45,959 nt of DNA from a virus: the IMG/VR virus record IMGVR_UViG_3300036893_000027; one strand, given 5' to 3'. The translations under genes and the position numbers were made by a program. Position 1 is the first letter of the stretch. The number at the start of each line of letters is the position of its first letter. Positions 5,889 through 30,138 of the stretch are shown piece by piece. Below the pieces are notes generated by a model that made no database searches, was not told where the DNA came from, and saw nothing but the letters and a program-made list of their open reading frames with translations.

Positions 5889-5908
5889 ATTGGTATAATG
5901 TGCCAATA
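5889..5908 (+). promoter_or_regulatory. promoter-like motif ATTGGTATAATGTGCCAATA (extended -10 TGGTATAAT)
   Basis: Perfect TGnTATAAT; the motif is repeated at 5991-6010. Confidence 0.45.
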
Positions 5909-5990
5909 GCAGGACTGTATTCGTTTCATTTGTGGCAGGAGCTATTCTATCTAAGCGGCTCTGGAGGCTACAATAGAATACAGTCCTGAT

Positions 5991-8836: not shown

Positions 8837-10349
8837 TGCTGGTTTGGCTTTTATGGATATGGTTATTGATCAGGTTCCAACCTTGCTGTCTGAAATAATT
8901 GGAACTAAAATCAAGAACAAAGCTGTTGATGCTATTGGTATTAAGTATAAGGGAATACCGAGGCTATTATCAGCTCGAGTTCTTGCGAAGAGAGCAGAAG
9001 ATGGTGCTTTCCTATCTGGCCCACAACAGATAGGATATGCCAAGTTTGCTATTCGCAAGGGTTTACCGGGCCCTGGTCAGAAGTATATGGCGATTGAGAA
9101 TGAACCACACACCGTTGATGATTTCAGTGGTGTGATTAAGGAGGGATATGGCAAAGGACGAAAGACCCTTGTTTGGTCCGGGCCAGCAGCAATCAAGAGT
9201 GCTGACCGCAGATGGATTGGGAGAGTTAATATCCATCTCCATAGCGCAGAACGTGCGGGAGACCACTATGATTTCGTTGCGGAAGGCGTTAGCCCAGGGG
9301 CCACGCAATTTGAAGTTAATATTCCGTCTGGTAAGTTTAGAGGACGGTACGCATTTGTGTCTCCTGACGGATTTTCAGGTGGAGAACGACTCATCACGAG
9401 GATGAAAGATCGTGGTGTATCTCTTGAGAAACCACGGTTTATCCTCAAGGATATTGACGAGCTTGTAGCATTAGATATTCTTGAGTCTCCTGATGCTGTA
9501 GTTGAGTGGAAGCCTGATGGTAGCTTGGGTAATGTTCTTATCCACGAGAACAGAGCTATTATTACCAGCCACAGGAAACAGGTTCCTTCCTATTACGATA
9601 AACTACCAGCTCTTGAATGGTTGGATAATAAGAGTCGATTGTTTACCAATAGACTCTTATTCAAAGGGCCAGATCAACAAGGGACTTTGTTGAGGGCTGA
9701 GCTATTTCATCCTGATGGAGCAGCAAGAGTTGGAGGTATCTTAAACTCTTCCCCTGATAAGGCTCAGTTATTCCAGCGTAAGAATGGGCCTGTTGTTACT
9801 TATGTTTGGGACATTGTCAAGCTCAGGGGAAGGGATGTTAGCAAACGGCCATACATAGAAAGGAGAGCAATATACGAGGATGTAGTAAAAGATATACGCA
9901 GGTATAATAAGAATTGGTTTGTTATACCTTCCGCTGACAAGAACTTTGTTTCATTCTATGAGCGGATTATCCACGATAAACGTGGTCTTCCTTGGAGTGA
10001 AGGTGTACTGATTAAAGAACACACCCACAAGACAGGTGATTCTGTCTATAAGGTTAAGTTCCGTGATACTTACGATGTCATCGTCTTGGATGTATTACAA
10101 GGCGAAGGCAAGCGTAAGGGTATGGTTGGTCAGTTTGTAGTTGATACTGGCCAGGGTGTAGGTGAAGTGGGCAGTTTTATGGCTACAGATAAGCAATTGA
10201 GATGGATGTGGAGAAATCGCAGCCTGCTCAAAGGACAGGTAGCTGAAGTATATGCCCAGGATGTCACGGAAGCTGGAGCACCAAGGGCTGGTGTGTTCTT
10301 CAGGTGGCATCCATCCAAGTCCGATGTTGCTAATTTGATGCCAAGGTAA
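8814..10349 (+). CDS. ATP-dependent DNA ligase with N-terminal LigD-type 3'-phosphoesterase-like domain
   Basis: Motif I EWKPDGS, motif III LRAELFHPDG, IV YVWDI, EGVLIKE, OB domain with motif VI-like PRAGVFFRWHPSKSD; N-terminus HLHSAERAGDHYDFVAEG resembles the LigD PE motif HxHx..HYDFRLE; probable TTG start with RBS GGAGGA. Confidence 0.8.
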   Translation: MLKDKLIDAGLAFMDMVIDQVPTLLSEIIGTKIKNKAVDAIGIKYKGIPRLLSARVLAKRAEDGAFLSGPQQIGYAKFAIRKGLPGPGQKYMAIENEPHTVDDFSGVIKEGYGKGRKTLVWSGPAAIKSADRRWIGRVNIHLHSAERAGDHYDFVAEGVSPGATQFEVNIPSGKFRGRYAFVSPDGFSGGERLITRMKDRGVSLEKPRFILKDIDELVALDILESPDAVVEWKPDGSLGNVLIHENRAIITSHRKQVPSYYDKLPALEWLDNKSRLFTNRLLFKGPDQQGTLLRAELFHPDGAARVGGILNSSPDKAQLFQRKNGPVVTYVWDIVKLRGRDVSKRPYIERRAIYEDVVKDIRRYNKNWFVIPSADKNFVSFYERIIHDKRGLPWSEGVLIKEHTHKTGDSVYKVKFRDTYDVIVLDVLQGEGKRKGMVGQFVVDTGQGVGEVGSFMATDKQLRWMWRNRSLLKGQVAEVYAQDVTEAGAPRAGVFFRWHPSKSDVANLMPR

Positions 10350-18052: not shown

Positions 18053-18417
18053 TAGATGAAGTGCTTCATCAGGAGGCACTTCAGCTGGCCAATTCAGAGG
18101 AGGGCATGAAGCAGTTAGTTCATGCCCTTCTTTTTAGCACATCTGGTTTGGAAGCTGATTTTATTAAGGCACTTAAAAAGTATGTCTACCTAAAACGTGT
18201 CTACCAAATTCAAAGGGCAAGGGAATCAGAAGGATACAACCCAAACAGGAAAAACCTGAACATAGACACAAGCAAGGAAGAAGTAGAAAATGCTCACGAG
18301 CGTATGCGGGAATACGAAATAGGACTGGGTTGTGAATATGGCTTTGACTATGTTGCTCACCTCAAGAAGAGTTGGGGAAAGATACTTTCATTACAAGCAG
18401 CAAAATTGGGACTGTAA
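18049..18417 (+). CDS. hypothetical protein
   Basis: ATGA coupling; its last 10 nt overlap the 5' end of tRNA-Lys. Confidence 0.55.
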   Translation: MIDEVLHQEALQLANSEEGMKQLVHALLFSTSGLEADFIKALKKYVYLKRVYQIQRARESEGYNPNRKNLNIDTSKEEVENAHERMREYEIGLGCEYGFDYVAHLKKSWGKILSLQAAKLGL

Positions 18418-18480
18418 CTCAGTTGGTAGAGTAGCTGACTCTTAATCAGCGAGTCGTGGGTTCGAATCCCACCAGTCCCA
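18408..18480 (+). tRNA. tRNA-Lys (anticodon CUU), CCA encoded
   Basis: Acceptor GGGACTG/CAGTCCC, anticodon arm GCTGA-CTCTTAA-TCAGC (CTT at 18441-18443), T-loop GGGTTCGAATCCCAC. Confidence 0.85.
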
Positions 18481-18538
18481 CCACTTTCTTGAGGCTGTAG
18501 CTCAGCAGTTTCTATGTTACAATGTCCACATTTCATAT

Positions 18539-18614
18539 GTCCTCGTATCGGAACGGACTTCTAATCCGTAGCCCCGTAAATGGATCAATGTGAGTTCGAG
18601 TCTCACCGAGGACA
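18539..18614 (+). ncRNA. atypical tRNA-Arg(UCU)-like element without a canonical D-arm
   Basis: Perfect 7-bp acceptor GTCCTCG/CGAGGAC plus ACCA, anticodon arm ACGGA-CTTCTAA-TCCGT (TCT), T-arm GTGAG-TTCGAGT-CTCAC; only 7 nt lie between acceptor and anticodon stem, with a 20-nt region where the variable loop should be; a 5' Ala-tRNA-like fragment (GAGGCTGTAGCTCAGC) sits immediately upstream. Confidence 0.4.
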
Positions 18615-18703
18615 CCATTTCCTAGGAAGAGAGGTATTTGAACCCAAAGTATATGTCTCGGCAAAAGAAGCAATCGAAAGGATTGATAAACTACTGAAAT
18701 AAA

Positions 18704-19063
18704 ATGTGGAATAAATTCCGTAAGCCAGAGAATATTCAAAACCTTCACGTTGCTTTATGGTTGCTGAAAGATTCTTCTTGGTGTCAATCCTGGCACATAA
18801 TGGGAGTATGTATGATAGCTCCCACTCTTTTAGTAACCATATATATGACTTGGCAGCAAAGGAAATACTGGCCTGACCTTATCCATAACATTGCCGTATG
18901 TTTATGGATATGTGCTAATATTGTTTGGATGTGTGGGGAATTCTTCCTACAAGACTCAACAAGACCATATGCCAGGATATTCTTTATTATGGGCCTGGCA
19001 ACTTTGGCAGGCTATTACTCTTATGCTTTTATCCAGCATCTAAGAGGAAAGGAGGTTCAGTGA
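18704..19063 (+). CDS. integral membrane protein
   Basis: Four hydrophobic helices; Trp/Cys-rich. Confidence 0.5.
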   Translation: MWNKFRKPENIQNLHVALWLLKDSSWCQSWHIMGVCMIAPTLLVTIYMTWQQRKYWPDLIHNIAVCLWICANIVWMCGEFFLQDSTRPYARIFFIMGLATLAGYYSYAFIQHLRGKEVQ

Positions 19064-21957: not shown

Positions 21958-22245
21958 ATGGAGAAGATTCAAGCAGAAGTGCGTTTATATTATACAGGAA
22001 GAACAAGCTGGGAAACTGAGTATTTCACAGCTTCGTCTCTTATGGATGTTCAGATTCAAGCCACAAAAATTGCCAAGGAAAGACAAGCCAGTCATTTCAA
22101 CTTTGGGTTGGCAACACCTGAGGAAAATATCCAAGAAAATCGCAGACTAACTTCCAAAGTCTTTGGGGCAAATATCCCGGTGAAAGATCAAGTAAAAGCC
22201 ATAGAAGGAGCTCTAGGTCTAAGGACTGAAGATGACTCAGACTAA
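21958..22245 (+). CDS. hypothetical protein
   Basis: RBS TTAGGAGAAATA-ATG. Confidence 0.6.
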   Translation: MEKIQAEVRLYYTGRTSWETEYFTASSLMDVQIQATKIAKERQASHFNFGLATPEENIQENRRLTSKVFGANIPVKDQVKAIEGALGLRTEDDSD

Positions 22246-23212
22246 CCCAGAAAAGAAAGAAAGAGAAAGACACAAACCCAAGATTTATATGAACATAGGT
22301 CTTCCTGGTTCCGGTAAAACAACGGAATCCAGGAAGATGATGAATCACGACTCGAATATTATGAGAATTAACAGAGATGATATTCGTGCTATGTGTATGA
22401 ATCATTGGAAGGGAAAGAAGGAAGAATATGTCACTTTATTGGAACAGGAAGCTATTAAGCTTGCCGTTAAAGAACGATACAGTGTTATTATTGATGACAC
22501 CAACCTCAATCCTAACACGAGGAAAAAGTGGGAAAATCTGGCTCTGGAGCTAAAGGTACCTTTCGTTGAGAAAAGCTATCTGGAAGTATCCCTACAAGAT
22601 TGTATTGAAAGGGATGATAACAGAGATAAGAAAGTCGGCAGAGTTGTAATTGAAAATATGGCTCTGAGATACAATCTTATCCCTAAACCAGATAAGCCAA
22701 TTGTTATCTTTGACATCGACGGAACTTTGGCTGACCTTAGTCATAGACAGGGCTACCTAAAAGTATGCAAGGTATGTAAGAAGCTTGAAAAATACCATAT
22801 CGAGAAGATAGAAGGAGCTTGTGGAACTTACACACCGAGCAGGAAAGATCATATATCCTTCTATAATCTTGTCCACGAAGACAAGCCTATTTGGACTGTT
22901 ATAGATTGGATTAACGCTTGCTCGGAGGATTATTATCCAATCTGTGTCTCTGGTCGACCTATGAATCTAACAGGTGAGTCTACCCACTGGTGGCTTAGTA
23001 TGTATCACGTCAATTATCATCATCTTTTTATGCGGGAAAGTGGTGATTTTAGACAAGATACGATTGTTAAACAGGAGATTCTTGACAAGATTCTGAAGTG
23101 GGTACCCAAAGATCAAATTCTATTCACGGTTGATGATAGACCTTCTATCGTTGAAATGTGGAAGAAGAATGGAATCCGCTGCTATGATGTGGGAAAAGGA
23201 ATAGAATTCTAA
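22232..23212 (+). CDS. pnkp: polynucleotide 5'-kinase/3'-phosphatase (T4 Pnkp-like)
   Basis: N-terminal P-loop GLPGSGKTT kinase; C-terminal HAD phosphatase motif VIFDIDGTLAD (DxDGT) with downstream VDDRP. Confidence 0.85.
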   Translation: MTQTNPEKKERERHKPKIYMNIGLPGSGKTTESRKMMNHDSNIMRINRDDIRAMCMNHWKGKKEEYVTLLEQEAIKLAVKERYSVIIDDTNLNPNTRKKWENLALELKVPFVEKSYLEVSLQDCIERDDNRDKKVGRVVIENMALRYNLIPKPDKPIVIFDIDGTLADLSHRQGYLKVCKVCKKLEKYHIEKIEGACGTYTPSRKDHISFYNLVHEDKPIWTVIDWINACSEDYYPICVSGRPMNLTGESTHWWLSMYHVNYHHLFMRESGDFRQDTIVKQEILDKILKWVPKDQILFTVDDRPSIVEMWKKNGIRCYDVGKGIEF

Positions 23213-25020: not shown

Positions 25021-26229
25021 ATGTCAGATACGCATAAATGTGAAGTAGTTAGGGTGTTCCCTAAACAACATCCTAATCCGAAGTGCACAAAACTCGACTT
25101 AGTTGAAGTCTATGGGTATACCTGCTGTGTCCAAAAAGGTCAATTCGAACAAGGGCAGTTGGCTATCTACATTCCTCCTGACTCGGTCGTTCCTCAGAAA
25201 AAGCAATTTGAATGGCTCTGGGAAGATATTGAACTTCTCGAAGGCCAAGAAGTCCCCATCCGTCGCCGTAGGATCAAAGCGAAGAAACTCCAAGGTGTAG
25301 CCTCTGAAGGATTACTGATACCTATCAGTGATTTTGGCTATCACGAATATATAACTGATAGTCAATCTATGCCTACAATGAAGGAAGGACAGGATGTTGC
25401 TTCCATCATTGGAGTAACACACTATGAACCTCCTTGTGATGAAACAAGTGGTGATTCCGAGAAAGCCCCTTGTAAGATCAGGAAGAAACGCTATCCCAAG
25501 ACATTTATGGGTTGGGTTTGGTTTATTCTTGATAAGCTGGGACTGCTAAAAAAAAAAGATCAAACAGAAACCACGGCAGAAACAGCAAGCTTTGAAGTCC
25601 CAATCTATGATTTAGAACCTTGGCAGAAACACAGGTCAAGAATAGAAGAAGGGGAAGAAGTTCTAATCACTGAGAAAATCCACGGAGAGAATAGTAGATT
25701 TACCTGGATGAACGATAGGCTTTATTGCGGCAGCCACTATCAATGGAAGAAGAACATAGCAGGTTCAAGATGGTGGGAATGTGTTAAACAGAATCCCTGG
25801 ATTGAATCTTTCTGTAAACAAAATCCAGGTTTAGTTATGTATGGCGAACTTGTTCCTACACAGAAGAGATACAACTATGGACAGAAAGAGGGCAAGTTCA
25901 GACTGTTTGGTTTTGACGTTTATAAACCAGCAGAAAGAAGGTATCTAAGTTATGAAGAGCTTCAAGCGCTCCCATTCGAGTACATATATGGAGAAGCTGA
26001 GGATTCAATTCACGCCAACATTTTGCACCCGTTTCATTGGGTGCCAACAATTAAGAAAGGCCCATACACTCAAGAAGATATTAGGCAGCTTTCGGTTGGC
26101 CAGTCGTTGGTACCGGGGGCAACCAATATCCGAGAAGGAATTGTTATCAGAACAATCAAAGAAAGGAAAGATTATAAAGGGAGGATATGCTTCAAGTTAG
26201 TATCAACTGATTATCTGGAAAAGGATTAA
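25021..26229 (+). CDS. ATP-dependent RNA ligase, Rnl5-like (NgrRnl/DraRnl family)
   Basis: N-terminal domain EVVRV..GYTCCVQKGQFEQGQLAIYIPPDS matches the NgrRnl N-terminal OB-like domain (GWTCVIKKGEFKQGD..VYFEIDS); nucleotidyltransferase motif I TEKIHGENSRF, plus FRLFGFDVY and EGIVIRT..K motifs; no C-terminal OB domain. Confidence 0.8.
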   Translation: MSDTHKCEVVRVFPKQHPNPKCTKLDLVEVYGYTCCVQKGQFEQGQLAIYIPPDSVVPQKKQFEWLWEDIELLEGQEVPIRRRRIKAKKLQGVASEGLLIPISDFGYHEYITDSQSMPTMKEGQDVASIIGVTHYEPPCDETSGDSEKAPCKIRKKRYPKTFMGWVWFILDKLGLLKKKDQTETTAETASFEVPIYDLEPWQKHRSRIEEGEEVLITEKIHGENSRFTWMNDRLYCGSHYQWKKNIAGSRWWECVKQNPWIESFCKQNPGLVMYGELVPTQKRYNYGQKEGKFRLFGFDVYKPAERRYLSYEELQALPFEYIYGEAEDSIHANILHPFHWVPTIKKGPYTQEDIRQLSVGQSLVPGATNIREGIVIRTIKERKDYKGRICFKLVSTDYLEKD

Positions 26230-26231
26230 AG

Positions 26232-26435
26232 TTGCCCATCAAAAGATTTAATGTTAATATGGATCTTGGGAACATATGGGGAAGGCTCTCCGAAACTTGG
26301 GGAGCCTTTTTCTTGTTGTGCTCTCCCAGATATAGAAAGATGGTAAAGAGAATCGACTTTGTAAGCAGCTGGACTAAAAGGAGAAGAGTCTGGATGAGGC
26401 TTAGGAGGGACAATGATAAAAATACCACGCCCTAA
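26232..26435 (+). CDS. small basic protein (TTG start, weak)
   Basis: ORF in the gap between genes. Confidence 0.3.
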   Translation: MPIKRFNVNMDLGNIWGRLSETWGAFFLLCSPRYRKMVKRIDFVSSWTKRRRVWMRLRRDNDKNTTP

Positions 26436-26622: not shown

Positions 26623-27581
26623 GAGTTATTATAGGTAGGTTTCAAATACCAGCTCTTCACGAAGGACATAAGAGACTGTTTGAAACTGTATTCAACAGAC
26701 ATAAGAGAGTAGTTGTTCTGTTGGGAATTCCAGCTTGGTTAGGTGGGACAATAAATCCACTTGACTATCAGACTCGAAAGGCTATGATATTAGAAGATTA
26801 TCCAAATGCTCAAGTTGAATATATCAAAGATTGCCAAACCAACGAAGCGTGGAGTAGGAACGTTGACAATAGACTTGGAGAACTCTACCCGTTCTCAGAG
26901 ATTATATTGTATGGAGGTAGAAAGGGTTTTACAGGGGCGTATTGTGGGAAGTTTCAAACTATTGAAACTCTGGAAGATCCGAAATATCATGAAGAAAACG
27001 CAAGCGAAATGCGTAAACAAGCTTCGGTCTTACCGCTCTCGTCAAAAGATTTTAGGACGGGTGTAATATATGGGGCATTTTCGGTTCCAGAAGGGCCCCA
27101 AATGTGTATTGATGGCGCTGTTCTACGAGAGCTTGACAGCAAGGAACTACAAAAAAAGGTTCAAGTTCTTCTCATCGCTAAAGCTAATGAGAAGATGTGG
27201 CGCTTCCCTGGCGGCAAGCTTGACAATGGGGATGTTGACTTGGAGGCAGCTATACTCAGGGAGGTACGTGAAGAGACAGGACTGGAAGTAAGCAACCCCA
27301 GATATATAGCCAGTGGCCCTGTAAAGGACTGGAGAGCGGACAGAGCAGGCATTCAGCTGTATAGTGCCTTATTTGTCCTTGATTACGTCTACGGGGCTGC
27401 TAAGGCCCAAGACGATGCTGCCTTATCTACCTGGCTGGATTTAGAAGGTCTAACAATAGAAAATATGGAGGAATGCCACCGTCCTTTCCTCTTGGCTTTG
27501 AAGAATTGGTATAATACTTACAAAACAAAGGAGATAGAATGCGAGACAACTTCCTGCTCCAAACAGATAGTTATAAGCTAA
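26595..27581 (+). CDS. bifunctional NMN adenylyltransferase / Nudix hydrolase (NadM-Nudix type)
   Basis: N-terminus GVIIGRFQIPALHEGHKRL (NadM GRFQPxHxGH); C-terminal Nudix box GGKLDNGDVDLEAAILREVREETGLEV. Confidence 0.8.
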   Translation: MALPGHTSVGVIIGRFQIPALHEGHKRLFETVFNRHKRVVVLLGIPAWLGGTINPLDYQTRKAMILEDYPNAQVEYIKDCQTNEAWSRNVDNRLGELYPFSEIILYGGRKGFTGAYCGKFQTIETLEDPKYHEENASEMRKQASVLPLSSKDFRTGVIYGAFSVPEGPQMCIDGAVLRELDSKELQKKVQVLLIAKANEKMWRFPGGKLDNGDVDLEAAILREVREETGLEVSNPRYIASGPVKDWRADRAGIQLYSALFVLDYVYGAAKAQDDAALSTWLDLEGLTIENMEECHRPFLLALKNWYNTYKTKEIECETTSCSKQIVIS

Positions 27582-28957
27582 CTCACTGGAAGCAGTATCC
27601 TAAAGACGCAGAGGTAGTTTATAGTTACCTTATGCCTCGTGGAGCTGTTCAAGGAGAAGCTATTCATCACGTTAATATAGTCAATTCAAGTATGTTGACT
27701 TATTACTTGAGGACTTATTTACAGGGCCAGCTTTTTGATATGGATGATATCATTGAAGCTGAGCAGTTCTGTGATGACCATTTTGGTAAAAAGGGCTACT
27801 TTAACCGAGCTGGATGGGAACACATTCTTAAGGAACATAATGGAAGGATTCCAGTTAAGATAAAAGCTCTTCCTGAAGGAATGATAGTTCCTATTGGTAA
27901 TCCTCTGATGACGGTTGAAAACACAGATGAAAGAGTCCCGTGGATAACAAACTACATAGAATCTTTGCTACTGAAAGTGTGGTATCCTGTTTCCGTCGCT
28001 ACGTTAGCAATGAATATAAGGAAAGTTATATCAGGTTATTTGGAAAAGACAGGGGATGTAGCCCAATTGCCATTCAAGTTGCACGACTTTGGATACCGTG
28101 GCGTATCCTCAGAGGAATCAGCAAAGCTGGGCGGAGCGGCCCACTTGACGGTCTTCCAAGGAAGCGACAATCTTACTGGTATTAGAATGCTAAAGAAGAT
28201 GTATAGAGAAGCAGGTATGCCTGGTTTCTCTGTTCCAGCTTCGGAACATTCTACTATGACCAGCTGGGGAAAAGACCACGAGATTGACGCTTACATCAAT
28301 ATGATGGAAGCTTACCCCACAGGTATCATTTCTATTGTTAGTGATAGCTATGATATCTTCAACGCTTGTGATAAGATTTTTGGAGTTGAGCTGAAAGATA
28401 GAATTCTAAAGAGGGATGGAGTTGTAGTAATTCGTCCTGATTCAGGAGACCCAGCTGAGACAATAGCTTCGGTTCTTACCATTCTTGAGAAGCATTTTGG
28501 AACTACAAAGAATGAAAAGGGCTACAAGGAGCTTCCAGCTCAAGTCAGACTACTTCAAGGAGATGGAGTAAACCTTGCAAGTATTGAACGCATTCTTAGT
28601 ATGATGAGGTGGCGTTCTTTCTCTGCCAATAACATTGTTTTTGGTATGGGTGGGGCTCTTCTCCAGAAGATGGACAGAGATACACTTGGATTTGCTTTCA
28701 AGTGCTCTGCTATCAAGCGAGCTGGAGTTTGGCACGATGTCTTTAAAACAGCCAGTGGAAAGAAGTCTCTTAGGGGACGCTTGGCCGTCATAAAAAATGC
28801 CAAGGGAGAAATTGAAACTATCTCTGGTGATCCTGACTTGGTTCTTGGAGAAGATCTACTTGGAATCAAGTTTATGAACGGAGGTTTGTATGAATTCCCA
28901 ACCCTACAAGGGATAAGAGAGTATACAAAGATCCAGGAACCTGTTCTAATAGGATAG
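27539..28957 (+). CDS. nadV: nicotinamide phosphoribosyltransferase
   Basis: Starts MRDNFLLQTDSYKLTHWKQYP (NAMPT hallmark DSYKxTHxxQYP); length 472 aa. Confidence 0.9.
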   Translation: MRDNFLLQTDSYKLTHWKQYPKDAEVVYSYLMPRGAVQGEAIHHVNIVNSSMLTYYLRTYLQGQLFDMDDIIEAEQFCDDHFGKKGYFNRAGWEHILKEHNGRIPVKIKALPEGMIVPIGNPLMTVENTDERVPWITNYIESLLLKVWYPVSVATLAMNIRKVISGYLEKTGDVAQLPFKLHDFGYRGVSSEESAKLGGAAHLTVFQGSDNLTGIRMLKKMYREAGMPGFSVPASEHSTMTSWGKDHEIDAYINMMEAYPTGIISIVSDSYDIFNACDKIFGVELKDRILKRDGVVVIRPDSGDPAETIASVLTILEKHFGTTKNEKGYKELPAQVRLLQGDGVNLASIERILSMMRWRSFSANNIVFGMGGALLQKMDRDTLGFAFKCSAIKRAGVWHDVFKTASGKKSLRGRLAVIKNAKGEIETISGDPDLVLGEDLLGIKFMNGGLYEFPTLQGIREYTKIQEPVLIG

Positions 28958-28965
28958 GAGAGTAG

Positions 28966-30138
28966 ATGAAACTTTACAATATGTTAGATGTAAATCTACT
29001 CCACAAGTATTGGGTAGAGAGAATTGTATCAAAACAGACTCACCCAGAGCACAAAAACTTAGAGATCTATAACTACACTCATCGTGCTCAACACGAGAAC
29101 ATATGGGACAATATAACGGAACAATGTAGAGGATTAATAGTAGATTCCAATACGGGCGATGTATTAGCTCGTCCTTTTCGTAAGTTCTTTAATCTCAACA
29201 CTTCTTTCAAACCTGAGACTATGGAAGAGAACTTACCATATAAAAAGCCAGATTGTATACTTGAGAAGATGGATGGTTCTCTTGGCATTTTATATCCTTA
29301 TAACAATAAGCAATATATTGCAACACGAGGTTCATTTTCTTCTGATCAAGCAAGATGGGCAAATACTTGGTGGGATAGATTAGCATTTTATAACACTGGA
29401 TACCCTGAGTTTCCAAAAGGTTACACTCCATTATTCGAAATCATTTACAAGGAGAATAGAATTGTCGTTGACTACCAGTTCGAAGGTTTGGTCTTACTTG
29501 GACTTGTCCAGATTGAGACTGGTTTTGAGCTACCGTTTACGGAGGTTTGCGAGGTGGCCAGGAGGAACGGACTACAATCACCTAAATCTATTGAAGGGAG
29601 CTTGGAGGAGATCACATCCCGCCAGGAAAGTAATACAGAAGGGTTTGTATTACAGTTTTGGTGCCGCAAAGCCCCCGTCCCTCTACGGCTTAAAGTAAAA
29701 ACCGAGGAGTATAAAAGGCTACATAAAATAATAACTGGCACAAACCCTAAGGGTATATGGGAACACCTGAAAGAAGGTGGGGATCCAGATGCTCTTTGGG
29801 CTAACACTAATAACCAGTTCTTTCACTGGTGCCAGGGTTGGATCAATACTTTTCAAAGGATGTATAAGGAACTTGAAGATGAAACACTCAAAGCATTCGG
29901 TAGAGTTTGTGCCAATGTATCGGAAACACTTTACAGCACACACGGGACACTGGACGCACCGGCTATCAGGGGGGCCCACGCAGTTCTTATTCAACAGGAG
30001 CAAGTTCACTATCAGCCGATACTCTTCGCTATGTTATCAGGTAAGGGATACAAAAAACAAATATGGAAGTCCTTAGAACCTAAAATCCAAGGAAAGGATG
30101 TTTTCCTAAGAAATGGCGACGAATTTAACGGTATTTAA
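28966..30138 (+). CDS. rnlA: RNA ligase 1 (T4 RnlA-like tRNA repair ligase)
   Basis: CRGLIVD..RPFRKFFNLN..ILEKMDGSLGI collinear with T4 Rnl1 CRGIMFE..RPMEKFFNLN..ILTKEDGSLVS (motif I KxDGSL). Confidence 0.85.
   Translation: MKLYNMLDVNLLHKYWVERIVSKQTHPEHKNLEIYNYTHRAQHENIWDNITEQCRGLIVDSNTGDVLARPFRKFFNLNTSFKPETMEENLPYKKPDCILEKMDGSLGILYPYNNKQYIATRGSFSSDQARWANTWWDRLAFYNTGYPEFPKGYTPLFEIIYKENRIVVDYQFEGLVLLGLVQIETGFELPFTEVCEVARRNGLQSPKSIEGSLEEITSRQESNTEGFVLQFWCRKAPVPLRLKVKTEEYKRLHKIITGTNPKGIWEHLKEGGDPDALWANTNNQFFHWCQGWINTFQRMYKELEDETLKAFGRVCANVSETLYSTHGTLDAPAIRGAHAVLIQQEQVHYQPILFAMLSGKGYKKQIWKSLEPKIQGKDVFLRNGDEFNGI

What the first reader, a model, noticed from the sequence alone, without database searches (positions are those of the whole stretch)
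18484..18617. Unconventional tRNA-Arg(UCU)-like gene lacking a D-arm, next to a tRNA 5' fragment
The 76-nt segment 18539-18614 has a perfect 7-bp acceptor stem with ACCA, a 5-bp anticodon stem with the UCU loop, and a canonical T-arm (TTCGAGT). However, only 7 nt separate the acceptor from the anticodon stem, and a 20-nt segment (AGCCCCGTAAATGGATCAAT, containing a D-loop-like AATGGAT) sits where the variable loop belongs. Just upstream, GAGGCTGTAGCTCAGC resembles the first 16 nt of a tRNA-Ala with no matching 3' half. This could be a rearranged or permuted tRNA, a decoy or tRNA-like regulatory RNA, or a nuclease-resistant tRNA variant. The phage encodes tRNA repair enzymes, which makes the last option relevant.
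Basis: seen in the sequence. Interest (0 to 1): 0.6.

Follow-up and report, generated by a model that had tools for sequence, protein, structure and literature searches.

The report
Phage arginine tRNA with rewired core
This is a real arginine tRNA gene whose D-arm is split and placed on either side of the anticodon arm; the same non-cloverleaf layout recurs in hundreds of phages (including Felix O1 and phi92), is mostly left unannotated in their records, and I found no description of it in the literature I could search.

Summary
Window 18539-18617 (+) has a 7-bp acceptor stem, ACCA end, a UCU anticodon arm and a canonical T arm. Only 7 nt lie where the D-arm belongs, and 20 nt lie where the variable loop belongs. 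Rfam's tRNA model matches it only by deleting the D-arm; ARAGORN misses it.

It is not a decayed gene. More than 150 distinct relatives share the layout. In them CGG before the anticodon stem pairs with CCG after it, with four covarying pair types. The next bases follow the D-loop consensus (A14 R15 .. G18 G19 A20). R15 covaries with the last base before the T stem, like the 15-48 Levitt pair. The D-stem strands and D-loop are therefore present in permuted order, and an ordinary L-shaped core can probably still form (inferred).

An anticodon-blind search returned almost only Arg anticodons (six kinds) with A20, the bacterial ArgRS determinant. A sister clade with U20 and A73 carries Ile-type anticodons.

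Felix O1, phi92, BASEL phages and Klebsiella, Vibrio, Streptomyces and rhizobial phages carry the gene inside tRNA clusters, mostly unannotated.

Best reading: a functional, structurally rewired tRNA-Arg that decodes AGA. Why it is rewired is unknown. The upstream "5' fragment" is real sequence but not diagnostic.

The parts
18539..18617 (+). Whole gene: tRNA-Arg(UCU) with a permuted D-arm, 76 nt plus encoded CCA
   Evidence: Rfam RF00005 scores it 42.6 bits with the D-arm deleted. The family model R1 scores it 84.6 bits (the window sequence is in R1's training set), while canonical tRNAs score 39 bits or less. It is the only copy in the window.
18539..18545 (+). Acceptor stem, 5' strand (GTCCTCG). 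It pairs with 18607-18613.
   Evidence: Read from the sequence. All 7 pairs covary in the family; 99.2% of cells are paired.
18546..18548 (+). U8 and A9 equivalents, then a U that faces U at 18577 (a 13-22-like U.U)
   Evidence: T8 and A9 are invariant in alignment A1. T opposite T is found in 62 of 76 subfamily-A sequences. The role assignment is inferred.
18549..18551 (+). CGG, the 5' strand of the new helix. It lies where the 3' strand of a D-stem (positions 23-25) leads into position 26 and the anticodon stem.
   Evidence: Pair counts in A1: C-G 139/139; next pair GC 79, CG 27, UA 19, AU 13, other 1; third pair GC 59, CG 38, AU 5, UA 3, UG 2, other 32. RNAalifold predicts the same helix independently.
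18553..18569 (+). Anticodon arm: ACGGA-CTTCTAA-TCCGT, anticodon TCT at 18560-18562
   Evidence: Read from the sequence. The stem covaries; 99.5% of cells are paired. The loop C32 U33 ... A37 A38 is shared by 133 of 151 family members.
18570..18573 (+). Linker AGCC between the anticodon stem and the returning helix strand (about 3-10 nt in the family)
   Evidence: Length and sequence vary across the family. Its role is unknown; filling the D-stem groove is an inference.
18574..18576 (+). CCG, the 3' strand of the new helix. It lies where the 5' strand of a D-stem (positions 10-12) leads into the D-loop.
   Evidence: The same covariation as for 18549-18551.
18577..18584 (+). D-loop-like segment TAAATGGA = U13 A14 A15 A16 U17 G18 G19 A20
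   Evidence: A search that did not specify this motif returned G-T-A-R-N(1-3)-G-G-A in all 85 unique sequences. A20 goes with Arg anticodons: 150 Arg and 1 Ile among A20 sequences, no Arg among 25 sequences with another base at 20. A20 is the main bacterial ArgRS determinant (PMC9976931).
18585..18589 (+). Connector TCAAT to the T stem. Its last U (18589) behaves as U48, the Levitt partner of A15 (18580).
   Evidence: R15 against the last base before the T stem: A-U 146, G-C 4 (three lineages), A-C 1. In A1: AU 134, GC 4, other 1.
18590..18606 (+). T arm: GTGAG-TTCGAGT-CTCAC
   Evidence: Canonical T-loop consensus. The stem covaries; 99.6% of cells are paired.
18607..18617 (+). Acceptor stem 3' strand CGAGGAC, discriminator A (18614), encoded CCA (18615-18617)
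   Evidence: Read from the sequence. CCA is encoded in 67 of 99 parsed viral-contig sequences (97 family members).
18491..18506 (+). GAGGCTGTAGCTCAGC in the 55-nt spacer. It resembles a tRNA 5' end; possibly a relic, and its status is unproven.
   Evidence: It holds the only exact GTAGCTCAG in the window. There is no covariance-model hit. The 16-mer occurs mostly outside tRNAs in viral contigs.
18408..18483 (+). Canonical tRNA-Lys(CUU) immediately upstream, on the same strand (context)
   Evidence: ARAGORN and Rfam at 75.1 bits.

Best explanation
Window 18539-18617 encodes a functional arginine tRNA (anticodon UCU, reading AGA). It belongs to a large phage-borne family whose core is wired differently from the cloverleaf.

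The order of elements is:
1. acceptor 5' strand;
2. U8 A9 U;
3. a 3-nt strand (CGG);
4. one nucleotide;
5. the anticodon arm;
6. a short linker;
7. the complementary strand (CCG);
8. a D-loop sequence (U A14 A15 N U G18 G19 A20);
9. a 5-nt connector ending in U48;
10. the T arm;
11. the acceptor 3' strand, discriminator A and CCA.

The CGG/CCG helix stacks on the anticodon stem, as a D-stem does. Its strands are connected the other way round: the strand that runs into the anticodon stem comes straight from the acceptor stem, and the strand that runs into the D-loop comes from the 3' side of the anticodon stem. The D-loop then leads directly into the T arm.

Shown here: the helix, the conserved D-loop consensus, the 15-48 covariation, and the link between position 20 and anticodon identity.

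Inferred from the known layering of the tRNA core: the molecule can still form U8-A14, R15-Y48 and G18G19 with the T-loop, and so adopt an L shape of normal dimensions, with 5 anticodon-stem pairs, one spacer layer and 4 D-stem layers. No strand would need to run along the D-stem groove.

Inferred mechanism of use: RNase P and the 3' processing enzymes recognise the normal acceptor/T domain. Host ArgRS reads A20, C35, U36 and A73. EF-Tu and the ribosome accept the tRNA. It supplies decoding capacity for AGA, the commonest Arg codon in this phage.

Why the rewired form is kept is not known. Escape from host tRNA-directed nucleases, or discrimination from host tRNA, is possible but untested.
For: **The element itself**
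- It is a tRNA-like gene with the D-arm missing from its normal place. It lies on the coding strand, directly after tRNA-Lys.

**A family, not an accident**
- A second pattern that did not specify the motif gave 85 unique sequences, all carrying the motif.
- The merged set holds 151 unique sequences.

**Structure**
- On a MAFFT alignment of 139 sequences, 98.3% of cells pair, against 62.5% after shuffling and at most 43.7% when partners are slid.
- The new helix shows C-G 139/139; then 138/139 paired with four pair types; then 107/139 paired.
- RNAalifold predicts the same helix without being given it. Motif-anchored counts agree.
- The proposed fold of the window sequence is -22.4 kcal/mol, against an MFE of -23.9.

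**Tertiary signal**
- R15 against the base before the T stem: A-U 146, G-C 4, A-C 1.

**Identity**
- Anticodons in the anticodon-blind set: TCT 55, ACG 26, CCT 7, TCG 6, GCG 2, CCG 1, against 1 GAT.
- With a base other than A at position 20, the same architecture carries TAT, GAT or CAT anticodons and discriminator A.
- This matches the bacterial identity sets: Arg = A20, C35, U/G36, A/G73; Ile = U20, A73 (PMC9976931 Table 1).

**Use**
- AGA makes up 34% of Arg codons in the window's ORFs, 18 per 1000 codons.
- Several contigs carry two family members with different Arg anticodons: L019, L029, L071, L085, L092.

**Cultured phages**
- It lies inside tRNA clusters, on the same strand, in Felix O1, Mushroom, phi92, Antha, BF17, KPP-1, Stanimal, Vibrio D419, Mesorhizobium Cp1R7A-A1, Atu_ph04 and SOVA965. 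Model R1 scores these 60-81 bits.
- In the ~5 kb tRNA-cluster regions retrieved for phi92 and Antha, it is the only gene with an Arg anticodon.

**Same slot as a canonical gene**
- Shigella phage Sf14 has a canonical tRNA-Arg(TCT) between Ile-GAT and Ser-TGA. Mushroom has the permuted gene at the same place in the same gene order.
- The Felix O1 genome paper noted over-use of AGA and that a matching tRNA 'might have been expected' (PMC3185647). The permuted gene is at NC_005282.1 25951-26029.
Against: - There are no expression, processing or aminoacylation data for any member. Function is inferred from conservation alone.
- The new helix is short: 3 pairs in the window, and only 2 reliable pairs in many ACG-type members (32 of 139 lack the third pair).
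- The 15-48 covariation rests on four sequences from three lineages.
- The three-dimensional equivalence to a normal tRNA core is reasoning from textbook geometry. It was not modelled or probed.
- For the window sequence alone, the thermodynamic MFE prefers a different fold that breaks the T arm.
- The family was collected with sequence patterns, so the invariance of G18, G19 and the T-loop is partly built in. The motif-blind scan removes this only for subfamily A with anticodon UCU.
- The library scans were capped at 120 loci, so all counts are lower bounds and samples, not censuses.
Confidence: 0.75

Rival explanations
1. It is a truly D-armless tRNA of the mitochondrial kind. It would be a flexible Y- or boomerang-shaped molecule with a long unstructured variable region and no D-loop/T-loop contact. 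The AATGGA similarity to a D-loop would be incidental.
For: No hairpin D-arm exists between the acceptor and anticodon stems. A synthetic D-armless tRNA-His works in E. coli translation (PMC11551756), so such molecules can function.
Against: - The segment after the anticodon arm is the most conserved part of the molecule, and it follows the D-loop consensus position by position.
- It is anchored by a covarying helix.
- R15 covaries with the base before the T stem.
- The T-loop keeps the full TTCGANT consensus, which mitochondrial armless tRNAs lose (PMC7609411).
- Position 20 tracks amino-acid identity.
Confidence: 0.08
2. It is a tRNA-like decoy or regulator that is not used in translation. 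Examples would be a sponge for a host anticodon nuclease or a tRNA-modifying enzyme, or a substrate for the phage's own PNKP and RNA ligase repair system.
For: The window encodes PNKP and two RNA ligases. Phage tRNAs are known to counter tRNA-targeting defences (PMC10264068 and PMC11464382, listed). There is no direct evidence that this RNA is charged.
Against: - A decoy has no need to diversify into six anticodons of one amino acid, or to keep A20 with Arg anticodons and U20 plus A73 with Ile anticodons.
- A decoy need not occupy the slot of a canonical tRNA-Arg(UCU) in a syntenic cluster.
- The acceptor stem, discriminator and CCA are intact, and AGA is the phage's commonest Arg codon.
Confidence: 0.07
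3. It is a functional tRNA-Arg, as in the best explanation, and the rewired core is kept specifically because it escapes a host or rival-phage nuclease that recognises the body of canonical tRNA-Arg (and tRNA-Ile). Alternatively, it lets a phage enzyme tell phage tRNAs from host tRNAs. This adds to the best explanation and does not exclude it.
For: - The family is essentially phage-borne. About 80% of pattern hits in viral contigs are members, against about 8% in cellular genome contigs, and the members checked there with R1 (L139, L154, L204, L212) sit among many further tRNA hits.
- There is no copy in 5,426 complete E. coli genomes.
- It coexists with tRNA-repair genes in this window.
- Evasion of tRNases by altered phage tRNAs is an established theme (papers listed).
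Against: - No nuclease with the required specificity was identified here.
- Known phage escape variants change the anticodon loop, but this family keeps the host-like loops CTTCTAA and CTACGAA.
- The family spans hosts from Enterobacteria to Streptomyces. That fits a broadly neutral, mobile tRNA lineage as well as it fits an arms race.
Confidence: 0.2
4. It is a decaying pseudogene: a tRNA-Arg that lost its D-arm through a deletion and gained junk in the variable region, next to another tRNA remnant.
For: Some annotation pipelines label a member 'tRNA-OTHER'. A possible tRNA 5' remnant lies 33 nt upstream.
Against: - More than 150 distinct sequences, from phages of unrelated hosts, keep the same architecture.
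- Substitutions are compensatory in all four helices.
- Acceptor stems are intact and CCA is encoded.
- In the phi92 and Antha cluster regions examined, it is the only Arg-anticodon gene.
Confidence: 0.02

Closest known systems
Canonical bacterial and phage tRNA-Arg (for example Shigella phage Sf14 tRNA-Arg(TCT); E. coli argU, from my own knowledge)
   Same: 7-bp acceptor stem, discriminator and CCA. A 5-bp anticodon stem with the loop C-U-UCU-A-A. The T arm. The D-loop consensus A14 R15 G18 G19 A20 and R15-Y48. The same slot in the Ounavirinae tRNA cluster.
   Different: The strand order of the core. The D-stem is not a hairpin; it encloses the anticodon arm. The D-loop follows the anticodon arm and runs straight into the T arm. 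There is no separate variable loop. Rfam can align it only by deleting the D-arm.
Mitochondrial D-armless tRNAs (tRNA-Ser(AGY/UCU) of mammals and nematodes) and the synthetic mini HisT
   Same: No D hairpin between the acceptor and anticodon stems, only a short connector (PMC7609411, PMC11551756).
   Different: Those molecules lose the D-loop and the D/T-loop contact and are flexible. This family keeps G18 G19, A14, R15-Y48 and a full T-loop. It is also not organellar. PMC11551756 states that natural armless tRNAs are known only from mitochondria.
Class II tRNAs (Leu, Ser, bacterial Tyr, Sec; allo-tRNAs) with long variable arms
   Same: About 20 extra nucleotides between the anticodon arm and the T arm.
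   Different: Class II tRNAs also have a normal D-arm, and their extra segment folds on itself. Here the extra segment pairs with the 5' connector and carries the D-loop. The class II tRNA-Ser and tRNA-Leu genes picked up by my pattern were clearly distinct.
Circularly permuted tRNA genes of Cyanidioschyzon merolae, and two-piece (permuted) tmRNA (from my own knowledge; Rfam RF04321 exists)
   Same: The idea that tRNA-fold elements can be encoded in a different linear order.
   Different: In those cases the gene or precursor is permuted at the acceptor ends and the mature tRNA fold is standard or two-piece. Here the 5' and 3' ends are normal. The permutation is internal and persists in the mature RNA.

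Membership tests
tRNA (Rfam RF00005 / cloverleaf tRNA) | Score at or above the curated gathering threshold of the family model | tested here: met
   42.6 bits against a gathering score of 29, matching model positions 1-71.
tRNA (Rfam RF00005 / cloverleaf tRNA) | 7-bp acceptor stem with discriminator and CCA; 5-bp anticodon stem with a 7-nt loop (U33, purine 37); 5-bp T stem with the TTCRANY loop | tested here: met
   Read from the sequence. All three helices covary in 139 relatives.
tRNA (Rfam RF00005 / cloverleaf tRNA) | D stem-loop hairpin between positions 9 and 26 | tested here: not met
   Only TATCGGA lies there. The Rfam alignment deletes 11 of the 13 D-arm positions. ARAGORN makes no call.
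tRNA (Rfam RF00005 / cloverleaf tRNA) | Aminoacylation and use on the ribosome | not testable with these tools
   Only indirect support: the anticodon and position-20 identity pattern, codon usage, and replacement of a canonical gene at the same position.
Permuted-D-arm phage tRNA family (defined here; model R1) | A helix formed by the strand just before the anticodon stem and a strand 3-10 nt after it, followed at once by G-U-A-R-N(1-3)-G-G-N and a short connector to the T stem | tested here: met
   The window has CGG/CCG followed by GTAAATGGA and TCAAT. R1 scores it 84.6 bits; it is part of the training set. Members outside the training set score 60-82 bits, and canonical tRNAs score 39 bits or less.
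Permuted-D-arm phage tRNA family (defined here; model R1) | R15 pairs by type with the last base before the T stem (Levitt-like) | tested here: met
   The window has A (18580) and T (18589). Family counts: A-U 146, G-C 4, A-C 1.
Bacterial tRNA-Arg identity set (A20, C35, U/G36, A/G73; PMC9976931) | A at position 20 of the D-loop, C35, U36 or G36, and a purine discriminator | tested here: met
   The window has GGA with A at 18584, anticodon TCT and discriminator A at 18614. Numbering that A as position 20 is an inference from the D-loop consensus, supported by the association between A20 and Arg anticodons.
Mitochondrial-type D-armless tRNA | Loss of the D-loop/T-loop interaction motifs (G18 G19, T-loop consensus) | tested here: not met
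   GG and TTCGAGT are present and are conserved across the family.
Class II (long variable arm) tRNA | A normal D-arm plus a self-pairing variable stem-loop | tested here: not met
   There is no D hairpin. The extra segment pairs with the 5' connector, not with itself.
Circularly permuted or split tRNA gene | The 3' half is encoded upstream of the 5' half, or the halves lie at separate loci | tested here: not met
   The acceptor 5' and 3' strands are in normal order within one 79-nt gene. The upstream 16-mer has no partner and gives no model hit.

The most novel reading that the evidence does not exclude
Phages carry a widespread, previously undescribed class of translationally active tRNAs: an Arg clade with six anticodons, and a sister Ile clade. 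Their core is an internal circular permutation of the cloverleaf: D-stem 3' strand, then the anticodon arm, then the D-stem 5' strand, then the D-loop. This would be the first natural non-cloverleaf tRNA architecture outside organelles. It would be read by ordinary bacterial ArgRS or IleRS, EF-Tu and ribosomes. It is present in laboratory phages such as Felix O1 and phi92, where it supplies the 'missing' AGA decoder.
Probability: 0.5. Interest if true: 0.9.

Novelty: new variant of a known kind. Interest (0 to 1): 0.85.

Why it matters
1. **tRNA architecture.** A 2024 paper states that all known bacterial tRNAs are cloverleaves and that armless tRNAs occur naturally only in mitochondria (PMC11551756). 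This family would show that the same L-shaped core can be built from a different strand topology. That bears on how tRNA evolved, and it offers new scaffolds for orthogonal tRNAs.
2. **Annotation.** ARAGORN missed every copy I tested with it, in nine loci. Most GenBank records leave the gene blank or call it 'tRNA-OTHER'. Phage tRNA repertoires, codon-compensation analyses and tRNA-versus-defence analyses therefore systematically lack an Arg decoder, often for AGA. The sister clade suggests they also lack an Ile decoder (AUA). The Felix O1 genome paper noticed the missing AGA tRNA.
3. **Testability.** E. coli K-12 and Salmonella phages carry the gene, so expression, charging, structure and fitness can all be tested directly.
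4. **Function.** The family may reveal a new way for phage tRNAs to differ from host tRNAs in the arms race over tRNA cleavage.

Tried and rejected
- **Close relatives of the window phage.** BLAST of 18300-18800 against cultured phages matched only the tRNA-Lys. A search of viral contigs with the PNKP protein found nothing. No syntenic comparison of the spacer was therefore possible.
- **ARAGORN in other modes** (mitochondrial, intron, relaxed threshold). It produced only a reverse-strand 'mt-Ser' and a forced 'tRNA-Leu(taa) with a 7-nt intron'. I rejected both. They destroy the conserved UCU loop and have no support in the family alignment.
- **The single-sequence MFE fold**. It pairs AUCCGU with AUGGAU and breaks the T arm. 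I rejected it because the anticodon-stem 3' strand varies freely across the family while the TGGA motif stays fixed, so this pairing is not maintained (alignment A1).
- **Pairing of A9 and U with the last two connector bases.** There is no compensatory change (TA 61, AA 6, CA 6, GA 2). The G15 sequences change the last base to C, which fits 15-48 pairing and not A9 pairing.
- **The 5' fragment.** There is no truncated-tRNA hit at E <= 10. The exact 16-mer is mostly non-tRNA elsewhere. No promoter-like or terminator-like site falls between 18300 and 18950.
- **'Arg only' as a property of the architecture.** I tested this with a pattern requiring a base other than A at position 20. It is rejected: an Ile-type clade exists.
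- **Whether the 'tRNA-Arg TCT' annotated by tRNAscan-SE in phage Sf14 is a family member.** It is canonical; R1 scores it 23 bits.
- **Literature.** Eight full-text searches found no description of this architecture. Subscription-only papers are not covered.
- **One Ile-clade sequence** had no match among cultured phages.
Full report
**1. The observation**

The sequence at 18539-18617 reads GTCCTCG TATCGGA ACGGA CTTCTAA TCCGT AGCCCC GTAAATGGA TCAAT GTGAG TTCGAGT CTCAC CGAGGAC A CCA.
- a perfect 7-bp acceptor stem and an ACCA end;
- a 5-bp anticodon stem with a UCU loop;
- a canonical T arm;
- only 7 nt where the D-arm belongs;
- 20 nt where the variable loop belongs.

Rfam's tRNA model matches at 42.6 bits (gathering score 29), but only by deleting 11 of the 13 D-arm positions and inserting 17 nt. 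ARAGORN finds the four ordinary tRNAs of the window (Met, Lys, Leu, Cys) and not this one. Its mitochondrial, intron and relaxed modes give only implausible alternatives.

The window looks like part of a large phage. Genes are almost all on the + strand. They include a PNKP, two RNA ligases, NAMPT and a DNA-ligase-like protein. The window has no close relative among cultured phages.

**2. It is a family**

I searched viral contigs for UCU tRNAs with a long gap before the T arm. Besides some class-II-like tRNAs, this returned sequences with the window's layout. In them the trinucleotide before the anticodon stem and a trinucleotide after it changed together: CGG/CCG in the window and CCC/GGG elsewhere.

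I then ran a pattern that ignores the anticodon, GTAANTGGA followed 7-14 nt later by GTTCGANTC.

A second pattern specified nothing in the D-loop-like region: GTATC, 8 nt, CTTCTAA, then a T arm. It gave 85 unique sequences. Every one carries G-T-A-R-N(1-3)-G-G-A at the same place.

The merged set has 151 unique sequences.

**3. Structure**

*The new helix.* I aligned 139 of the sequences with MAFFT (A1) and counted pairs.
- Overall, 98.3% of cells are paired. The figure is 62.5% after shuffling and at most 43.7% when partners are slid by 1-3 columns.
- The new helix (columns 12-14 with 41-43) is C-G in 139/139 sequences.
- The next pair is GC 79, CG 27, UA 19, AU 13, with one mismatch.
- The third pair is GC 59, CG 38, AU 5, UA 3, UG 2, with 32 mismatches.
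- RNAalifold predicts exactly this helix, together with the three classical ones, without being told.
- Counts anchored on motifs instead of on the alignment agree. No shuffle out of 10,000 reaches the observed pairing.

In the window the helix is C18549-G18576, G18550-C18575 and G18551-C18574.

*The D-loop-like segment.* The bases after the returning strand fit D-loop numbering exactly: U13 A14 A15 N16 U17 G18 G19 A20. The base at the R15 position covaries with the last base before the T stem: A with U 146 times, G with C 4 times (three lineages), and one A-C. This is the pattern of the 15-48 Levitt pair. It argues against the alternative that this U pairs with A9.

*Subfamily B.* A second subfamily, common in Vibrio phages, adds an outer helix between the nucleotides right after the acceptor stem and those right after A20. 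Its pairs are U.G 22/22, A-U 22/22, then AU 12 / GC 10, then CG 15 / UA 4 plus others. The window belongs to subfamily A and lacks this helix.

**4. What the rewiring means (inference)**

In a normal tRNA the D-stem stacks on the anticodon stem. The strand 22-25 continues through position 26 into 27-31. The strand 10-13 continues into the D-loop.

In this family the strand that continues into the anticodon stem comes directly from U8 A9. The strand that continues into the D-loop comes from the 3' side of the anticodon stem through a short linker (4 nt in the window). The D-loop then runs into the T stem through a short connector ending in A-U48.

The block 'D 5' strand, D-loop, D 3' strand, 26, anticodon arm' has thus become 'D 3' strand, 26, anticodon arm, linker, D 5' strand, D-loop'. 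That is an internal circular permutation.

The stack has the usual height: 5 anticodon-stem pairs, one spacer layer, then 3 Watson-Crick pairs plus U.U. The residues that build the core are all present: U8, A14, R15-Y48, G18 G19, and T54 to A58.

From the known layer order of the tRNA core (my own knowledge of the yeast tRNA-Phe structure), each new junction joins neighbouring layers: 9 to 22, 43/44 to 10, and 21 to 48. An ordinary L shape is therefore plausible, and no strand has to run along the D-stem groove. I did not model or probe this.

For the window sequence the proposed fold is within 1.5 kcal/mol of the MFE.

**5. Identity and use**

*Anticodons.* In the anticodon-blind set the anticodons are TCT 55, ACG 26, CCT 7, TCG 6, GCG 2 and CCG 1. 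These are all Arg. There is also one GAT, plus two false positives: a class II tRNA-Leu(GAG) and a spurious parse.

*A control for bias.* My pattern fixed A after GG, so I repeated it with any base except A. The same architecture appears with U at that position (C in one case), a discriminator A, and anticodons TAT 13, GAT 5, CAT 6 and TGT 1. None is Arg.

*Match to known identity sets.* The review of tRNA identity lists A20, C35, U/G36 and A/G73 for bacterial Arg. It lists U20 and A73, among others, for bacterial Ile (PMC9976931 Table 1). Position 20 of the permuted D-loop therefore follows the rules of the cognate synthetases. This is the strongest indirect evidence that these RNAs are charged, and that the D-loop numbering is right.

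*Codon usage and gene sets.* AGA is the commonest Arg codon in the window's ORFs: 34% of Arg codons, 18 per 1000. Several contigs carry two members with different Arg anticodons.

**6. Distribution**

*Cellular genomes.* The same pattern run on one genome per bacterial and archaeal species gave mostly class II tRNA-Ser genes and chance matches. Only about 9 of 120 hits were members. Those I checked with R1 (L139, L154, L204, L212) lie among many further tRNA hits. None was found in 5,426 complete E. coli genomes.

*Cultured phages.* By contrast, many carry the gene.
- A phi92-type sequence occurs at full length in about 254 records. These include Justusliebigvirus, Felixounavirus, Klebsiella Mydovirus, jumbo Asteriusvirus, the BASEL phages and Streptomyces Karimacvirus.
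- Subfamily B matches 289 Vibrio phage records.
- ACG types occur in Mesorhizobium, Xanthomonas, Stenotrophomonas and Microbacterium phages.
- The window's nearest matches are Agrobacterium phage Atu_ph04 and Stenotrophomonas phage SOVA965.

A covariance model of the family (R1) scores members 60-85 bits and canonical tRNAs 39 bits or less. In every record inspected the gene lies inside a tRNA cluster, on the cluster's strand. It is unannotated in all of them except one 'tRNA-OTHER'. ARAGORN missed it in all nine loci where I ran it.

**7. Two further arguments for function**

- Felix O1 (NC_005282.1) carries the gene at 25951-26029. Its genome paper found no AGA tRNA with tRNAscan-SE, although AGA is over-used, and remarked that one might have been expected (PMC3185647).
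- In the related Shigella phage Sf14 a canonical tRNA-Arg(TCT) lies between Ile-GAT and Ser-TGA. In Felixounavirus Mushroom the permuted gene lies at that position in the same gene order. The two forms are positional substitutes.

**8. The upstream fragment**

GAGGCTGTAGCTCAGC (18491-18506) contains the only exact GTAGCTCAG in the window, and it resembles the 5' end of the neighbouring tRNA-Lys. No model reports a truncated tRNA there. The 16-mer occurs 22 times in viral contigs, almost always outside tRNAs. A relic of a lost tRNA is plausible given its position, but that cannot be shown, and nothing links it to the permuted gene.

**9. Comparison with what is known**

The element works like a tRNA-Arg and passes Rfam's threshold. 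It fails the cloverleaf's defining D hairpin.
- It is not a mitochondrial-type armless tRNA, because it keeps the D-loop and the T-loop.
- It is not a class II tRNA, because it has no D hairpin and its extra segment does not pair with itself.
- It is not a permuted or split gene in the Cyanidioschyzon sense, because its ends are in normal order.

Eight full-text searches found no description of this architecture. A 2024 paper states that all known bacterial tRNAs are cloverleaves and that natural armless tRNAs exist only in mitochondria (PMC11551756). A 2020 review of non-canonical tRNAs has no such case (PMC7609411). The library lacks most subscription journals, so prior description cannot be excluded.

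**10. Verdict**

The finding is real and, as far as I can tell, new. It is a member of a widespread phage family of tRNAs with an internally permuted D-arm, and most probably a working AGA decoder.
- Confidence that it is a functional rewired tRNA-Arg: about 0.75.
- Confidence that the rewiring exists to evade nucleases: about 0.2 (this adds to the first claim).
- Novelty: a new variant of a known kind.
- Interest: high, because a specialist would not expect a non-cloverleaf tRNA in E. coli and Salmonella phages, and because it can be tested at once in laboratory systems.

Noticed in passing
L342, L343, L348 (two copies), L354, L359, L363, L372, L379, L384, L391, L404, L411, L420 (two copies), L434, L435, L440, L450, L451, L455, L461; also L100: A sister clade has the same permuted architecture but U (C in L440) at position 20, a discriminator A, and anticodons TAT, GAT or CAT (Ile, Ile2 or Met type). 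An example is TGGCGTA TATCTCC TCAAG CTTATAC CTTGT AGAAAGA GTAATTGGT CACAT GAGAG TTCGAGT CTCTC TTCGCCA A. One query found no copy among cultured phages.
   Followed up: partly
L014, L016, L019, L025, L038, L048, L051, L068, L077, L084, L085, L098, L100, L114-L116, L121, L125, L126; Vibrio phage D419 at L488 1481-1560: Subfamily B of the Arg clade has an extra covarying helix between the 4 nt after the acceptor stem (T-A-R-Y) and the 4 nt after A20 (R-Y-T-G). The D-loop becomes an 8-nt bulge in a long continuous stack. It is not clear how this fits the L shape.
   Followed up: partly
L001 2651-2724, and the same sequence in L004, L008, L011; variant in L010 885-959 (IMG/VR sample 3300045988): These tRNAs have a normal D-arm and a UCU anticodon, but also a class-II-like long variable stem-loop (GAGCTGCAATGCTC). 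That combination is unusual for an Arg anticodon.
   Followed up: no
L369, L408, L425, L382: These are tRNA-like sequences with an acceptor stem, a T arm, a D-arm-like TAGTATAATTGGTATTA and a GTAACTGGT motif. They have no evident 5-bp stem with a 7-nt anticodon loop.
   Followed up: no
L470, minus strand of the locus, around 5902-5917: A tRNA-Lys(UUU) 5' half (GAGGCTGTAGCTCAGCTGGTAGAGCAACGGACTTTTAATCC) is followed by unrelated sequence. It may be an intron-containing or split tRNA gene.
   Followed up: no
L491 1152-1230 (Felix O1 NC_005282.1 25951-26029): The annotated start of the HNH endonuclease ORF45 (26003-26395) overlaps the 3' part of the unannotated permuted tRNA-Arg gene. The CDS start is probably set too far upstream. 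HNH genes also flank family members in SOVA965.
   Followed up: no
window 40269-42692 (+): An 807-aa protein has a Major Vault Protein shoulder domain (E = 4e-30) and a vault repeat, with weaker SPFH/Band 7 similarity. This is unusual in a phage-like window.
   Followed up: no
window 22232-23212, 25021-26229, 28966-30138, 27539-28957, 8853-10349: The window encodes a PNKP kinase/phosphatase, an Rnl2-like RNA ligase, a T4 Rnl1-like RNA ligase, NAMPT and an ATP-dependent DNA-ligase-like protein. NAMPT also lies next to the tRNA cluster in phi92-like phages.
   Followed up: no
L486 1036-1110 and 2739-2808 (Klebsiella phage KPP-1): ARAGORN reports two 'tRNA-???' genes with 2-nt anticodons in the same tRNA cluster. 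One of them is annotated tRNA-OTHER/pseudo in the record.
   Followed up: no
L043 (IMG/VR 3300022752_000079): This is the single family member that combines A20 with an Ile anticodon (loop CTGATAT). It may be an identity switch in progress or a mis-acylation-prone tRNA.
   Followed up: no
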